A stretch of 64,000 nucleotides of DNA, taken from the NCBI RefSeq assembly GCF_054482595.1, contig NZ_CM137008.1; one strand, given 5' to 3'. The position numbers and the translations under genes are program-made. Numbering within the stretch: the stretch's first letter is position 1; each line of letters starts with the position of its first letter. The notes under the pieces are model-generated. The model was not told where the DNA came from. It was given only the letters and a program-made list of their open reading frames with translations, and made no database searches. Below, one piece after another: positions 7,145 to 31,747 of this stretch.

Positions 7145-7256
7145 ATTCACTATCGCCACTTTTATTGGCGATGAAAAGATGTTTCGTGAGGCCGTCGACG
7201 CTTATAAAAAATGGATATTAATACTGAAACTGAGATCAAGCAAAAGCATTCACTAA
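7113..7256 (+). CDS. kil: Kil (FtsZ-targeting host killing peptide, 47 aa)
   Basis: [47 protein letters not shown] matches lambda Kil; overlaps cIII and gam. Confidence 0.85.
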
Positions 7257-7627
7257 CCCCCTTTCCTGTTTTCCTAATCAGCCCGGCATTTCGCGGGCGA
7301 TATTTTCACAGCTATTTCAGGAGTTCAGCCATGAACGCTTATTACATTCAGGATCGTCTTGAGGCTCAGAGCTGGACGCGTCACTACCAGCAGATCGCCC
7401 GTGAAGAGAAAGAGGCAGAACTGGCAGACGACATGGAAAAAGGTCTGCCCCAGCACCTGTTTGAATCACTCTGCATCGATCATTTACAACGCCACGGGGC
7501 CAGCAAAAAAGCCATTACCCGTGCGTTTGATGACGATGTTGAGTTTCAGGAGCGCATGGCAGAACACATCCGGTACATGGTTGAAACCATTGCTCACCAC
7601 CAGGTTGATATTGATTCAGAGGTATAA
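7211..7627 (+). CDS. gam: Gam (RecBCD inhibitor), 138 aa long form
   Basis: Translation near-identical to lambda Gam as recalled. Confidence 0.95.
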
Positions 7628-7632
7628 AACGG

Positions 7633-8418
7633 ATGAGTACAGCACTCGCAACGCTGGCTGGGAAGCTGGCTGAACGCGTCGGCATGGATTCTGTCGACCC
7701 ACAGGAACTGATCACCACTCTTCGCCAGACGGCATTTAAAGGTGATGCCAGCGATGCGCAGTTCATCGCATTGCTGATCGTCGCCAACCAGTACGGCCTT
7801 AATCCGTGGACGAAAGAAATTTACGCCTTCCCTGACAAGCAGAACGGCATCGTTCCGGTGGTGGGCGTTGATGGCTGGTCCCGTATCATCAATGAAAACC
7901 AGCAGTTTGATGGCATGGACTTTGAGCAGGACAATGAATCCTGCACATGCCGGATTTACCGCAAGGACCGCAATCATCCGATCTGCGTTACCGAGTGGAT
8001 GGATGAATGCCGCCGCGAACCATTCAAAACCCGCGAAGGCAGAGAAATCACGGGGCCGTGGCAGTCGCATCCCAAACGGATGTTACGGCATAAAGCCATG
8101 ATTCAGTGTGCCCGTCTCGCCTTCGGATTTGCTGGTATCTATGACAAGGATGAAGCCGAGCGCATTGTCGAAAATACCGCATACACTGCAGAACGTCAGC
8201 CGGAACGCGACATCACTCCGGTTAACGATGAAACCATGCAGGAGATTAACACTCTGCTGATTGCCCTGGATAAAACATGGGATGACGACTTATTGCCGCT
8301 CTGTTCCCAGATATTTCGCCGCGACATTCGAGCATCGTCAGAACTGACACAGGCCGAAGCAGTGAAAGCTCTTGGATTCCTGAAACAGAAAGCCACTGAG
8401 CAGAAGGTGGCAGCATGA
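7633..8418 (+). CDS. bet: Bet (Red beta single-strand annealing protein), 261 aa
   Basis: Translation matches lambda Bet as recalled. Confidence 0.95.
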
Positions 8419-9095
8419 CACCGGACATTATCCTGCAGCGTACCGGGATCGACGTGAGAGCTGTCGAACAGGGGGATGATGCGTGGCACAAATTACGGCT
8501 CGGCGTCATCACCGCTTCAGAGGTTCACAATGTGATAGCAAAACCCCGCTCCGGAAAGAAATGGCCTGACATGAAAATGTCCTACTTCCACACCCTGCTT
8601 GCCGAGGTTTGCACCGGTGTGGCTCCGGAAGTTAACGCTAAGGCGCTGGCCTGGGGAAAACAGTACGAGAACGACGCCAGAGCCCTCTTTGAGTTCACTT
8701 CCGGCGTGAATGTTACTGAATCCCCGATCATCTATCGCGACGAAAGTATGCGCACCGCCTGCTCTCCCGATGGTTTATGCAGTGACGGCAACGGCCTTGA
8801 ACTGAAATGCCCGTTTACCTCCCGGGATTTCATGAAGTTCCGGCTCGGTGGTTTCGAGGCCATAAAGTCGGCTTACATGGCCCAGGTGCAGTACAGCATG
8901 TGGGTGACGCGAAAAGATGCCTGGTACTTTGCCAACTATGACCCGCGCATGAAGCGTGAAGGCCTGCATTATGTCGTGATTGAGCGGAATGAAAAGTACA
9001 TGGCGAGTTTTGACGAGATGGTGCCGGAGTTCATCGAAAAAATGGACGAGGCACTGGCTGAAATTGGTTTTGTATTTGGGGAGCAATGGCGATGA
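8415..9095 (+). CDS. exo: Exo (Red alpha 5'-3' exonuclease), 226 aa
   Basis: Translation matches lambda Exo as recalled. Confidence 0.95.
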
Positions 9096-9274
9096 CGCAT
9101 CCTCACGATAATATCCGGGTAGGCGCAATCACTTTCGTCTACTCCGTTACAAAGCGAGGCTGGGTATTTCCCGGCCTTTCTGTTATCAGAAATCCACTGA
9201 AAGCACAGCGGCTGGCTGAGGAGATAAATAATAAACGGGGAGCTGTATGCACAAAGCATCTCCCGTTGAGTTAA
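9086..9274 (+). CDS. lambda orf60a-like small protein (62 aa)
   Basis: Matches recalled lambda orf60a; overlaps exo 3' end. Confidence 0.7.
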
Positions 9275-9438
9275 GAACGAGTATCGAGATGGCACATAGC
9301 CTCGCTCAAATTGGAGTCAGGTTTGTGCCAATACCAGTAGAAACAGACGAAGAATTTCATACGTTAGCCGCATCCCTTTCACAAAAGCTGGAAATGATGG
9401 TGGCGAAAGCAGAAGCAGATGAGAGAGACCAGGTATGA
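9247..9438 (+). CDS. lambda orf63-like small protein (63 aa)
   Basis: Matches recalled lambda orf63. Confidence 0.7.
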   Translation: MHKASPVELRTSIEMAHSLAQIGVRFVPIPVETDEEFHTLAASLSQKLEMMVAKAEADERDQV

Positions 9439-9518
9439 CAACCACGGAATGCATTTTTCTGGCAGCGGGCTTCATATTCTGTGTGCTTATGCTTGCCGAC
9501 ATGGGACTTGTTCAATGA
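9435..9518 (+). CDS. Small hydrophobic peptide (27 aa, MTTTECIFLAAGFIFCVLMLADMGLVQ), ATGA-coupled on both sides
   Basis: Read from sequence: ATG overlaps orf63 stop (ATGA), stop overlaps next gene start (ATGA); single predicted TM helix; below ORF-track cutoff. Confidence 0.4.
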   Translation: MTTTECIFLAAGFIFCVLMLADMGLVQ

Positions 9519-9730
9519 CACCTCAGCAGGAAAACGCCCTTCGCAGTATTGCCCGTCAGGCTAATTCTGAAATCAAAAAAGCCAGACAGCAGTTTCCGGA
9601 TAAAAACGTCGATGACATTTGCCGTAGCGTACTGAAGAAGCACCGCGAAACGGTAACGCTGATGGGATTCACACCGACTCATTTAAGCCTGGCGATCGGC
9701 ATGTTAAACGGCGTCTTTAAGGAACGGTGA
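9515..9730 (+). CDS. lambda orf61-like small protein (71 aa from this start)
   Basis: In-frame ATG at 9515 within ORF 9419-9730; sequence MTPQQENALRSIARQ...; start choice uncertain. Confidence 0.6.
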   Translation: MTPQQENALRSIARQANSEIKKARQQFPDKNVDDICRSVLKKHRETVTLMGFTPTHLSLAIGMLNGVFKER

Positions 9731-9752
9731 GCATGAAAAACAAAATCATCAT

Positions 9753-9776
9753 GGAGCTACAGGCTCCTTTTTTATT
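9753..9776 (+). terminator. Weak intrinsic terminator-like hairpin inside the leftward operon
   Basis: GGAGC-TACAG-GCTCC followed by TTTTTT; only a 5-bp stem. Confidence 0.35.
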
Positions 9777-9828
9777 ATTCGCATTCACCCTCAAGCGTAT
9801 TAACCAACAATTCAGGGATTAATGAAAG

Positions 9829-10050
9829 ATGGCAGACATCATTGATTCAGCATCAGAAATTGAAGAATTACAGCGCAATACAGCAATAAAAATGCGTCGT
9901 CTGAACTACCAGACTATATCCGCCACTCATTGTTGTGAGTGTGGCGATCCCATAGATGAACGAAGACGCCTGGTCGTTCAGGGTTGTCGGACTTGTGCAA
10001 GTTGCCAGGAGGATCTGGAGCTTATCAGTAAACAGAGAGGTTCGAAGTGA
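9829..10050 (+). CDS. TraR/DksA-family C4 zinc-finger protein (73 aa)
   Basis: CxxC...CxxC motif (CCECGDPIDERRRLVVQGCRTCASCQ) typical of TraR/DksA-type phage proteins. Confidence 0.7.
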   Translation: MADIIDSASEIEELQRNTAIKMRRLNYQTISATHCCECGDPIDERRRLVVQGCRTCASCQEDLELISKQRGSK

Positions 10051-30202: not shown

Positions 30203-31747
30203 TTACCCCTGTTGCTGCGTCGGTTGTTCACTCTGCATCGCGCTCGGCCCCAGACGGGCATATTTCTGCATCAGGTAGACTTCGGCGATTAAGAACAGGG
30301 TGTAAAGCCCTACGATCATGATCAGTGAGAAAGCCAGTTGTCCTGTGGTTAAAGCGGAGTGCGCGGAGTATGTCGGTAAGATGTCCTGTATCGCCCACGG
30401 CTGACGACCAAACTCGGTCATAAACCACCCGGCTTCAATCGCAATCCACGGCAACGGCAAACTCCAGAGCGCCATTTTCAGCACCCAGCGATGCTGGTCG
30501 ATTTTGCCACGCAGCGTCTGGACAAGCGCAATCAGCATCACCAGTAGCAGCAGGGAACCACAGCCCACCATGATGCGGAAACTCCAGAATACCGGCGCAA
30601 CCTGAGGTATCGCGCCACGCATCGCCGCCTGGTACTGTGCGGCTGTGACATGATTCATATCCGGCGCATAGCGGGAGAGCAACATGCCGTAACCCAGGTC
30701 GCCTTCCAGCTCCCGGAATGCCTGCAACACATGCGGCTCACGATTGCCTTGCGATATTTCCTGCATTAACAGCCAGGCCATACGTCCGCGTTGCAAGCGT
30801 GGGTAGGTTTCAGCCATCAAATTCTTCAGACCCGGCACGGGTTTATCTAGTGAGTGAGTGGCGAGGATCCCTAACAGCGCGGGAATTTTGATGGCAAAGG
30901 CGTTACGCTCTTGATCCTGTTCCGGCCAGGCAACCACATGGAACGGTGCAGGAGCAGGTTCCGTTTGCCACTCCCCTTCCATCGCCGCCAGTTTTACCGG
31001 TTGTACTTGCGCGACTTCATACGCAGAACTGTCTCCGAGTTGCAGGGTACCGATAATCGCCAGAGTACCGAAGACGGAACCGATGGCAAACGAGCGTAAT
31101 GCGACATCGCGCTCCCGTCCGCGCAGTAAATACCAGGCGCTGATCGCCATAATAAACATGGCCCCGGTCACGTAGCCCGCCATTACGGTGTGCACAAATT
31201 TCACCTGGCTGACCGGGTTAAAGACCAGCTCGCTGAAGCTGGTCATCTCCATACGCAGGGTGTCGATATCAAAATGCGCACCGGTCGGGTATTGCATCCA
31301 ACCGTTGGCATTCAATATCCACAATGCAGAGAGATTTGAACCGAACGCCACCAGCCACGTCACCAGCAGGTGCTGGTATTTATTCAGCCGCTGCCAGCCG
31401 AAGAAGAAAAGCCCGACAAAGGTGGATTCGAGGAAGAAGGCCATTAATGCTTCCATCGCCAGCGGTGCGCCAAAAATATCGCCCACATAGTTGGAATAGA
31501 ATGACCAGTTAGTACCAAACTGAAACTCCATGGTCAGGCCGGTAGCCACGCCAAGAGCAAAGTTGATACCGAAGAGCTTACCCCAGAAGCGCGTCATATC
31601 GCGGTAGATTGTTTTGCCGGTGACCACGTAAATGGTTTCCATGATAGCCAGCAAAAAAATCAGCCCCAGGGTAAGGGGTACAAATAAAAAGTGATACAGC
31701 GCGGTCAGAGCAAACTGCCAGCGCGATAAATCAATGACATCCCACAT
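30203..31747 (-). CDS. appC: Cytochrome bd-II oxidase subunit I AppC (514 aa)
   Basis: Start at [15 protein letters not shown]; Q-loop-bearing subunit I. Confidence 0.9.

What the first reader, a model, noticed from the sequence alone, without database searches (positions are those of the whole stretch)
9435..9518. Unannotated 27-codon hydrophobic micro-ORF translationally coupled between orf63 and orf61
ATG at 9435 overlaps the orf63 stop (ATGA) and its stop overlaps the next gene start at 9515 (ATGA). The product MTTTECIFLAAGFIFCVLMLADMGLVQ is a single predicted TM helix. Double ATGA coupling argues for real translation; small membrane peptides in phage early operons often modulate host membrane proteins.
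Basis: seen in the sequence. Interest (0 to 1): 0.35.

Follow-up and report, generated by a model that had tools for sequence, protein, structure and literature searches.

The report
Hidden 27-codon gene in lambda-type prophages
A 27-codon reading frame for a small, very hydrophobic peptide sits between two early genes of lambda-like prophages (it is identical in phage lambda) and evolves like a real protein-coding gene, yet reference annotations omit it or cover it with a wrongly extended "orf61".

Summary
ATG 9435 overlaps the orf63 stop as ATGA, and TGA 9516-9518 overlaps the ATG of the next gene at 9515. The product is MTTTECIFLAAGFIFCVLMLADMGLVQ.

An open 27-codon frame is not unusual by chance (about 0.22-0.28), and a second forward frame is open there too. 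The support comes from comparison.
- Of 161 distinct lambdoid contexts, 158 keep the ORF intact.
- Distinct polymorphisms split 15 synonymous to 10 non-synonymous, against 28% synonymous expected (p=8e-4).
- Pairwise dN/dS is about 0.1, the same as orf61.
- The overlapping "long orf61" frame looks neutral (7:19; dN/dS about 0.9). Its 103-aa form often lacks its ATG or carries a stop. Its extra residues model with low confidence.
- The ATGA junction survives when orf63 is replaced by a Dam methylase, which supplies a strong ribosome-binding site.

No RNA structure and no known protein family match the region.

My best reading is a real small hydrophobic protein, probably in the membrane. It would be translated by coupling from the upstream gene, and its termination would feed ribosomes into orf61. 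Translation, location and function remain untested.

The peptide already exists in databases as "hypothetical protein". It is absent from the lambda and RefSeq annotations examined and from the papers searched. Published orf61 deletions also removed it.

The parts
9435..9518 (+). 27-codon micro-ORF. Product MTTTECIFLAAGFIFCVLMLADMGLVQ. Identical in phage lambda at complement(30925..31008).
   Evidence: Intact in 158/161 distinct contexts. Synonymous excess 15:10, p=8e-4. dN/dS about 0.1 against the 2G7a type, and 3 of 3 differences synonymous against the VT2-Sakai type.
9435..9438 (+). ATGA overlap: the micro-ORF start codon overlaps the orf63 stop codon.
   Evidence: The same ATGA junction occurs with a Dam methylase stop in PhiR30_1-type prophages.
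9421..9433 (+). Purine-rich Shine-Dalgarno-like stretch (GAGAGAGACCAGG) inside the 3' end of orf63.
   Evidence: Anti-SD duplex -5.6 kcal/mol with 6-nt spacing. In the Dam-methylase context GGGAGG gives -10.3 kcal/mol.
9450..9497 (+). Codons 6-21 (CIFLAAGFIFCVLMLA), the hydrophobic core and candidate transmembrane segment.
   Evidence: Highest 15-residue Kyte-Doolittle mean 2.87. Summed Hessa scale -3.5 over 15 residues and about 0 over 19-21 residues. No Lys or Arg.
9515..9518 (+). ATGA overlap: the micro-ORF stop overlaps the orf61 start. It is GTGA in some haplotypes and TAATGA in the Q27-stop variant.
9247..9438 (+). orf63 (DUF1382), the upstream gene that delivers ribosomes.
   Evidence: Pfam PF07131, E=3e-31. 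Annotated in lambda and by PGAP.
9515..9730 (+). orf61-type gene, 71-aa form, the downstream coupled gene. It follows the micro-ORF in every case seen.
   Evidence: PGAP start. Homology in SfI-type phages begins at this ATG. Synonymous excess 29:35, p=0.0018. AlphaFold pLDDT 75-92 from about residue 21 of the 93-aa form.
9419..9514 (+). Alternative-frame N-terminal extensions of orf61, from ATG 9419 (103 aa, lambda-style) or ATG 9449 (93 aa, Phi24B-style). I judge them annotation artefacts.
   Evidence: ATG 9419 present with no internal stop in only 35/161 contexts. Frame statistics neutral, 7:19, p=0.65. dN/dS about 0.9. SD spacing 13-14 nt. pLDDT 45-56. Absent from SfI-type orf61.

Best explanation
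The 27-codon ORF is a genuine protein-coding gene of the lambda-type early leftward (pL) operon. It encodes a small, acidic, very hydrophobic peptide. Ribosomes that finish the upstream gene (orf63, or a Dam methylase in some prophages) terminate at the TGA of ATGA and restart on the overlapping ATG. A modest to strong Shine-Dalgarno sequence in the upstream gene's last codons helps this. Ribosomes finishing the micro-ORF terminate on a second ATGA or GTGA and restart on orf61, whose own ribosome-binding site is weak. The ORF therefore both makes a peptide and relays translation into orf61. The peptide sequence is under purifying selection, so the product matters and not only the act of translating it. 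Its most likely fate is insertion into the inner membrane as a short single helix. Shown here: the anatomy, frame conservation, amino-acid-level constraint, the mosaic boundaries, the absence of RNA structure, and the weakness of the competing orf61 extensions. Inferred: translation, coupling, membrane location and any target.
For: Anatomy. Prevalence: the region is in 3,169 of 5,426 complete E. coli genomes, and the peptide is 100% identical in 138 of 176 phage records. Integrity: 158 of 161 contexts are intact, 2 lose only Gln27, and 1 has an ATA start. Polymorphism test on 175 distinct contexts: the micro frame gives 15 synonymous to 10 non-synonymous against 0.28 expected (p=8e-4), and 194:16 by copies. 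The other two forward frames are not significant. Controls with the same method give orf61 29:35 (p=0.0018) and orf73 36:35 (p=5e-6), while the neighbouring 31-aa ORF gives 10:20 (p=0.22). Pairwise dN/dS is 0.033/0.33 against the 2G7a type, and 0 non-synonymous with 3 synonymous differences against the VT2-Sakai type. Mosaic evidence: in PhiR30_1-type prophages homology starts exactly at the micro-ORF ATG. The Dam methylase stop makes the same ATGA, and GGGAGG lies 3-4 nt upstream (-10.3 kcal/mol). SfI-type phages have orf61 without the micro-ORF and carry their own GAGG site. The SD for ATG 9435 (-5.6 kcal/mol, spacing 6) is better placed than those for 9419 (spacing 14), 9449 (spacing 13) or orf61 at 9515 (-3.9 kcal/mol). 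The RNA folds worse than 197 of 200 shuffles, and there is no Rfam match.
Against: There is no direct evidence of translation or of the peptide. The ribosome-profiling paper on lambda is not held. A review of it lists only a 7-aa and a 31-aa extra ORF in this region. The sample of mutations is small (25 distinct changes), comes from closely related and recombining prophages, and is confined to Escherichia. The antisense frame whose third positions coincide also scores p=0.015. One lineage, Escherichia sp. E1V33, has destroyed the ORF with a 14-nt deletion. SfI-type phages do without it. The hydrophobic core is short for a membrane span (15-16 residues), and the peptide has no basic residues to orient it. 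No family matches it in Pfam, PHROGs or NCBIfam.
Confidence: 0.7

Rival explanations
1. Relay ORF only. The frame is translated, but only the act of translation matters. It carries ribosomes from orf63 across an 80-nt gap to the weak orf61 start, and the peptide is a by-product.
For: orf61 has the weakest SD of the operon (-3.9 kcal/mol). The stop/start overlap with orf61 is kept even when the orf61 start is GTG or the micro-ORF ends one codon early. Where the micro-ORF is absent (SfI type), orf61 has its own GAGG site. In E1V33 a 14-nt deletion joins the coupled ATG directly to the orf61 frame. The micro-ORF was never found without orf61 downstream.
Against: A pure relay would tolerate any non-stop amino-acid change. 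Instead non-synonymous variants are few and rare (10 types in 16 copies, against 15 synonymous types in 194 copies). dN/dS is about 0.1, as low as for orf61 itself. The peptide is identical in 138 of 176 phage records.
Confidence: 0.12
2. The stretch is the N-terminal part of a longer Orf61 (93 aa from ATG 9449, or 103 aa from ATG 9419), as annotated in lambda, Phi24B and several other phage records. On this view the 27-codon frame is a chance overlap.
For: The +2 frame is open. ATG 9449 is present with no stop in all 161 contexts. Many records and PHROG 303 use the 93-aa form. In E1V33 a 93-aa ORF in this frame is ATGA-coupled with a strong SD.
Against: The 103-aa form lacks its ATG or has an in-frame TGA in 126 of 161 contexts. 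Substitutions in this frame are 7 synonymous to 19 non-synonymous (p=0.65), and dN/dS is about 0.9. SD-like pairing lies 13-14 nt from either ATG. ATG 9449 and the openness of the frame follow from the conserved Glu5-Cys6 codons and the NTN codons of the micro-ORF. SfI-type orf61 starts at the 9515 ATG with unrelated sequence upstream. AlphaFold gives pLDDT 45-56 for the first 20 residues against 75-92 for the core. A published model likewise set residues 1-23 aside (PMC8614690).
Confidence: 0.07
3. Non-coding spacer. The ORF is a chance feature of an intergenic gap, and the region is conserved for RNA-level reasons or simply because these prophages are young.
For: An open 26-codon frame arises in 22-28% of random sequences. 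All copies are at least 90% identical, so there is little divergence to test. Some phages lack the stretch.
Against: Changes concentrate at the micro-ORF's third codon positions (p=8e-4), a pattern that neither an RNA structure nor neutrality predicts. The RNA folds worse than shuffles (z=+2.07), and there is no Rfam hit. Per-site diversity (0.34) is as high as in the flanking genes, so the stretch is not merely frozen. All other gene junctions from exo to orf61 overlap, and this would be the only gap.
Confidence: 0.06
4. The constraint comes from the 61-codon antisense ORF (9317-9502, minus strand), whose third codon positions coincide with those of the micro-ORF.
For: That frame also shows a synonymous excess (12:14, p=0.015). 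It is 61 codons long in 143 contexts.
Against: The signal is weaker than in the sense frame and is expected as a by-product of shared third positions. Its ATG is lost (ATA) in 5 contexts, and it is cut to 44 codons in the 16 Dam-methylase contexts, 5 of which are the ATA cases. It would overlap the validated orf63 out of phase and run against the pL transcript. No promoter-like site for it was found.
Confidence: 0.02

Closest known systems
Annotated 'orf61' of lambda (61 aa, NP_040613) and vb_24B_7c of Phi24B (93 aa)
   Same: They occupy the same DNA. Lambda orf61 (30839..31024) contains the whole micro-ORF, and vb_24B_7c starts 14 nt inside it. They belong to the same early exo-xis operon.
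   Different: They use a different reading frame. The annotated N-termini (32 or 22 residues) show no amino-acid constraint and model as disordered. Lambda orf61 is additionally frameshifted by an extra A (A7 against A6 at window 9575-9580), so it is a remnant. The micro-ORF is a separate 27-aa product.
Small single-helix inner-membrane proteins of E. coli encoded inside operons, such as KdpF (29 aa), YohP (27 aa), MgtS (31 aa) and AcrZ (49 aa); recalled from my own knowledge
   Same: Similar size, one hydrophobic segment, encoded tightly within an operon, and often missed by annotation. KdpF also lacks basic residues.
   Different: There is no sequence or family relationship (no Pfam, NCBIfam or PHROG hit). 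The micro-ORF is phage-borne and confined to Escherichia. Its hydrophobic core is shorter. Membrane location and partner are untested.
Lambda Kil (47 aa) and CIII (54 aa), small host-directed peptides of the same pL operon
   Same: Both are annotated a few genes upstream in a 99.9%-identical copy of this prophage. They are small early products acting on host proteins (FtsZ and FtsH, by established knowledge).
   Different: No sequence similarity was looked for or seen, and the micro-ORF peptide has no known target.
The 31-aa ORF (window 9727-9822), 'orf2313' of the lambda ribosome-profiling study as cited in PMC8614690
   Same: It is the neighbouring unannotated or sporadically annotated small ORF, also overlapping the stop of the preceding gene (GTGA).
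   Different: It is reported as ribosome-occupied, but here it shows no synonymous excess (10:20, p=0.22) and it contains a terminator-like hairpin. The 27-aa ORF is the reverse case: it has an evolutionary signature, but I could find no published report of ribosome occupancy.

Membership tests
Protein-coding gene under purifying selection | The reading frame is kept intact across relatives. | tested here: met
   158/161 distinct contexts intact, 2 lose only the last codon, 1 has an ATA start. Exceptions are the E1V33 14-nt deletion and one rearranged copy.
Protein-coding gene under purifying selection | Excess of synonymous over non-synonymous change in this frame and not in overlapping frames. 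| tested here: met
   15:10 against 0.28 expected, p=8e-4. The other forward frames give p of 0.65 or more. dN/dS about 0.1. Controls orf61 and orf73 are positive.
Protein-coding gene under purifying selection | Demonstrated translation or detected protein. | not testable with these tools
   No ribosome-profiling or proteomics data were available, and Liu et al. 2013 is not held.
Translationally coupled (termination-reinitiation) gene pair | The stop of the upstream gene overlaps the start codon (ATGA), and this is conserved. | tested here: met
   ATGA at both ends. Kept with orf63 and with Dam methylase upstream, and with ATG or GTG orf61 starts downstream.
Translationally coupled (termination-reinitiation) gene pair | Downstream translation depends on upstream translation. 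| not testable with these tools
   This needs reporter fusions with upstream stop or start mutants.
Small single-pass membrane protein (generic class) | A hydrophobic segment long enough to span the bilayer (about 18-21 residues). | tested here: inconclusive
   The uninterrupted core is 15-16 residues (CIFLAAGFIFCVLMLA). The 19-21-residue windows include Asp22 and sum to about 0 kcal/mol on the Hessa scale. GRAVY is 1.62.
Small single-pass membrane protein (generic class) | Flanking basic residues that set topology (positive-inside rule). | tested here: not met
   There is no Lys, Arg or His. The only charged residues are Glu5 and Asp22.
Any curated protein family (Pfam, PHROGs, NCBIfam) | A significant profile match. 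| tested here: not met
   Pfam gives none at E up to 1. PHROG 21538 'membrane protein' scores E=0.68. NCBIfam MtrF scores 13.8 bits against a cutoff of 25.
N-terminal segment of Orf61 (PHROG 303, 93-aa form) | Amino-acid-level conservation of the segment in the orf61 frame. | tested here: not met
   7 synonymous to 19 non-synonymous, p=0.65. dN/dS about 0.9.
N-terminal segment of Orf61 (PHROG 303, 93-aa form) | The segment is present wherever orf61 is present and is part of the fold. | tested here: not met
   SfI-type and other mosaic orf61 variants lack it. pLDDT is 45-56 against 75-92 for the core.
Structured RNA element | Folding more stable than shuffles, or a match to a known family. | tested here: not met
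   z=+2.07, with 197/200 shuffles folding at least as well. No Rfam match at E up to 1.

The most novel reading that the evidence does not exclude
The 27-aa peptide is a functional early lambda protein that acts at the host inner membrane. It, rather than Orf61, would account for part of the phenotypes published for 'orf61' deletions and frameshifts, such as more lysogens and delayed induction. This would apply especially in lambda itself, where orf61 is a frameshifted remnant but the micro-ORF is intact. A plausible but untested target class is a membrane protease or insertase complex that influences the lysis-lysogeny decision.
Probability: 0.15. Interest if true: 0.7.

Novelty: new member of a known kind. 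Interest (0 to 1): 0.45.

Why it matters
Lambda is one of the most closely studied genomes, and its exo-xis region is being dissected gene by gene because it influences induction of Shiga-toxin prophages.

If this ORF is real, the gene map of that region needs correcting. The order would be orf63, a 27-aa gene, then a 71-aa orf61. The 61-, 93- and 103-aa 'orf61' forms used for deletions, two-hybrid screens, protein expression and modelling would carry a spurious N-terminus.

The published orf61 deletions in lambda and Phi24B (PMC6213356) replaced the annotated orf61. That removed all 84 nt of the micro-ORF in lambda and the last 70 nt in Phi24B. Those phenotypes therefore cannot be assigned to Orf61 alone. 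The reported insolubility of over-expressed Orf61 may also stem from the wrong start; this is my inference.

The stretch occurs in 58% of complete E. coli genomes. It would therefore be a very common unannotated small protein.

Tried and rejected
- **Peptide homologue search.** I used tblastn on phages instead and a degenerate back-translated DNA pattern on 100,044 species genomes. Only Escherichia carried it. Two chance hits and two MAG contigs that look like contamination also turned up.
- **Divergent orf61 homologues.** I looked at P0069 and P0075 (51-52% identity) to test the upstream frame. They are frameshifted or error-ridden copies, not true distant relatives.
- **Micro-ORF without orf61.** I searched for one and found none.
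- **Family searches.** Pfam, PHROGs and NCBIfam gave nothing for the peptide.
- **RNA element.** Rfam and RNA folding gave nothing.
- **Orf61 fold.** Foldseek of the Orf61 model against the PDB gave no match below E=2, so Orf61 gives no functional clue.
- **Literature.** The peptide sequence string appears in no held paper. Liu et al. 2013 and the Casjens-Hendrix review are not held. No held paper links exo-xis with a small membrane protein.
- **Phage 434B annotation.** Its 'putative membrane protein' label turned out to sit on orf61, not on the micro-ORF.
- **Programmed frameshifting.** I considered and rejected frameshifting that would fuse the peptide to Orf63 or Orf61. I saw no slippery heptamer by reading the sequence, and the fused frame is not conserved.

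Full report
**What is there.** The window is an E. coli chromosome carrying a lambdoid prophage next to torS. On the + strand, 7211-10050 is the lambda early-left 'exo-xis' block:
- gam, bet and exo (exo is 8415-9095);
- orf60a (DUF1317, 9086-9274);
- orf63 (DUF1382, 9247-9438);
- the 27-codon ORF (9435-9518);
- an orf61-type gene (9515-9730);
- a 31-codon ORF (9727-9822);
- a TraR/DksA zinc-finger gene, orf73 (9829-10050).

The 601 bases around the ORF are 97.7% identical to phage lambda. Lambda carries the identical ORF at complement(30925..31008).

**What the annotations say.** Lambda RefSeq and GenBank annotate 'orf61' as 61 aa. It starts at the ATG equivalent to window 9419, in another frame, and it covers the whole micro-ORF. 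Phi24B and some other records annotate a 93-aa form from the ATG equivalent to 9449. PGAP annotates a 71-aa form from 9515 and leaves 9439-9514 empty. That is the only gap in an otherwise overlapping run of genes.

Lambda differs from the window and from wild relatives by one extra A in an A-run (A7 against A6 at window 9575-9580). Lambda 'orf61' is therefore a frameshifted remnant. The exact 27-aa peptide is nevertheless present in public protein collections as 'hypothetical protein' (UniRef A0A0A2SGE8_ECOLX), with a gene called on 981 contigs. No held paper contains its sequence or mentions a small membrane protein in this region. A review of the lambda ribosome-profiling study lists only a 7-aa and a 31-aa additional ORF here.

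**Is it more than chance?** Openness alone is not. 22-28% of random 26-codon stretches of this composition are stop-free, and the +2 frame is open too. That second open frame is largely automatic. Most micro-ORF codons are NTN, so the overlapping +2 codons end in T and cannot be stops.

**Comparative evidence.** I collected about 260 loci from phage records, E. coli genomes and IMG/VR contigs. These reduce to 175 distinct contexts of about 1 kb.
- Of the 161 that contain the stretch, 158 have the ORF intact. Two end one codon early (Gln27 to stop, still overlapping the orf61 ATG). One has an ATA start.
- I counted each distinct mutation once. In the micro-ORF frame there are 15 synonymous and 10 non-synonymous changes, against 28% synonymous expected (binomial p=8e-4). 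Counted by copies the split is 194 to 16.
- The orf61-extension frame gives 7:19 (p=0.65). The third forward frame gives 5:21.
- The same test is positive for orf61 (29:35, p=0.0018) and orf73 (36:35, p=5e-6). It is negative for all wrong frames and for the neighbouring 31-codon ORF (10:20, p=0.22).
- It is also negative for orf63 (11:26), a protein with a solved structure. The test can therefore miss real genes, but it did not give false positives here.
- Pairwise, window against the most divergent type (2G7a) gives dN 0.033 and dS 0.33 for the micro-ORF. orf61 gives 0.012 and 0.115. The extension frame gives 0.062 and 0.067. Against the VT2-Sakai type, all three differences in the micro-ORF are synonymous.

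**The competing orf61 starts.** ATG 9419 is replaced by ACG in the Stx-phage haplotype and is absent in the Dam-methylase context. A common ACG-to-ACT change, silent in the micro-ORF, creates TGA in the extension frame. Only 35 of 161 contexts could make the 103-aa form.

ATG 9449 is always present, but it is embedded in the conserved Glu5-Cys6 codons. Anti-Shine-Dalgarno pairing sits 13-14 nt from both alternative ATGs. For ATG 9435 it sits 6 nt away at -5.6 kcal/mol.

AlphaFold on the 93-aa form gives pLDDT 45-56 for the first 20 residues and 75-92 for the helical core, which begins at the 9515 Met. A published model similarly excluded residues 1-23 (PMC8614690).

**Mosaic boundaries.**
- In PhiR30_1-type prophages (15 distinct contexts), orf63 is replaced by a 185-aa Dam methylase. 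Homology to the window starts exactly at the micro-ORF ATG. The methylase stop forms the same ATGA, and GGGAGG lies just upstream (-10.3 kcal/mol).
- In SfI-type phages, homology begins at the orf61 ATG. The micro-ORF is absent and orf61 has its own GAGG site.
- The micro-ORF was never seen without orf61 after it.
- In Escherichia sp. E1V33 the upstream gene is a DGQHR-domain protein. A 14-nt deletion there puts the coupled ATG into the orf61 frame, which destroys the micro-ORF.

The ORF therefore behaves as a unit attached to the front of orf61. It is usually kept but can be lost.

**Alternatives at the RNA level and on the other strand.** The RNA of 9405-9545 folds worse than 197 of 200 shuffles, and nothing in Rfam matches. 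The 61-codon antisense ORF (9317-9502) shares third positions with the micro-ORF and so inherits a weaker signal (12:14, p=0.015). It loses its ATG in 5 contexts, is truncated to 44 codons in the 16 Dam contexts, and runs against the pL transcript through orf63.

**The product.** The peptide has GRAVY 1.62 and an uninterrupted hydrophobic core of 15-16 residues (CIFLAAGFIFCVLMLA). It has no basic residues, and its only charges are Glu5 and Asp22. That fits a short membrane helix but is borderline in length and gives no topology signal. No curated family matches it. The peptide and orf61 are both confined to Escherichia among 100,044 species genomes. The stretch is in 3,169 of 5,426 complete E. 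coli genomes.

**Most likely mechanism.** I propose a real small hydrophobic protein made from the pL transcript by termination-reinitiation after orf63 (or the methylase). Its own termination would pass ribosomes to the weakly initiated orf61. The anatomy, the constraint and the boundaries are shown. Translation, coupling, membrane insertion and any target are inferred. My confidence that it is a selected coding gene is about 0.7. The main rival is that only the relay matters (0.12). That rival is disfavoured because amino-acid changes are rare.

**Consequences.** The published 'orf61' deletions replaced the annotated ORFs with a scar (PMC6213356). In lambda this removed the whole micro-ORF. 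In Phi24B it removed all but the first 14 nt. Their phenotypes, the two-hybrid results and the insoluble over-expressed proteins all rest on constructs with the extension frame. They cannot be assigned cleanly to Orf61.

**Verdict.** This is a real, conserved, overlooked small gene of a familiar kind. It also corrects the orf61 gene model. Its function is unknown.

Noticed in passing
window 9575-9580 (lambda 30865 region; L001 about 975): Lambda lab strains have A7 where the window and wild lambdoid prophages have A6. Lambda 'orf61' is therefore a frameshifted, truncated remnant of a 71-aa gene. All lambda-labelled records share the longer form.
   Followed up: yes
window 9727-9822, hairpin 9753-9767 plus a T-run: A terminator-like hairpin (GGAGCTACAGGCTCC followed by TTTTTTATT) lies inside the 31-codon ORF that a review cites as ribosome-occupied in lambda ('orf2313'). 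That ORF shows no synonymous excess (10:20, p=0.22).
   Followed up: partly
L218 981-1262 (Escherichia sp. E1V33): A 14-nt deletion places the ATGA-coupled ATG (with a GGAGG site) into the orf61 frame, giving a 93-aa ORF and destroying the micro-ORF. The upstream gene is a 251-aa DGQHR-domain protein.
   Followed up: partly
L214 (Segatella copri MAG contig) and L219 (Nanosynbacter MAG contig): Across the roughly 160-base stretch inspected, these short MAG contigs match E. coli lambdoid prophage haplotypes. They carry the intact micro-ORF with the usual orf63 and orf61 flanks. This is most likely binning contamination.
   Followed up: no
window 9275-9418 (orf63): orf63 encodes a protein with a solved NMR structure, yet it shows no synonymous excess in the polymorphism test (11:26, p=0.35). 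Two C-terminal allele classes exist (…VAKAEADERDQV and …AAKAEANERDPA).
   Followed up: no
window 9421-9428, the (GA)4 run; protein P0087: An 89-aa protein seen on 6 contigs is an in-frame orf63-micro-ORF fusion. It is consistent with loss of 2 nt in the GAGAGAGA run just upstream of the ATG.
   Followed up: no
window 9515-9730: The PGAP product name 'cell division protein ZapA' for orf61 rests on a sub-threshold Pfam match (16.1 bits against a cutoff of 23.8). Foldseek against the PDB finds nothing. The phage 434B record calls the same gene 'putative membrane protein'.
   Followed up: partly
L256 and L203 (IMG/VR contigs): These are single natural variants. L256 has ATG changed to ATA at the micro-ORF start, which turns the orf63 stop into TAA. 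L203 has a premature TAG two codons before the end of orf63, which uncouples the ATGA junction.
   Followed up: no
L089 and L164: An IS3-family element is inserted just upstream of the position equivalent to window 9419 in E. coli ZLWT (L089). One IMG/VR contig (L164) has a rearrangement breakpoint inside the micro-ORF near 9485.
   Followed up: no
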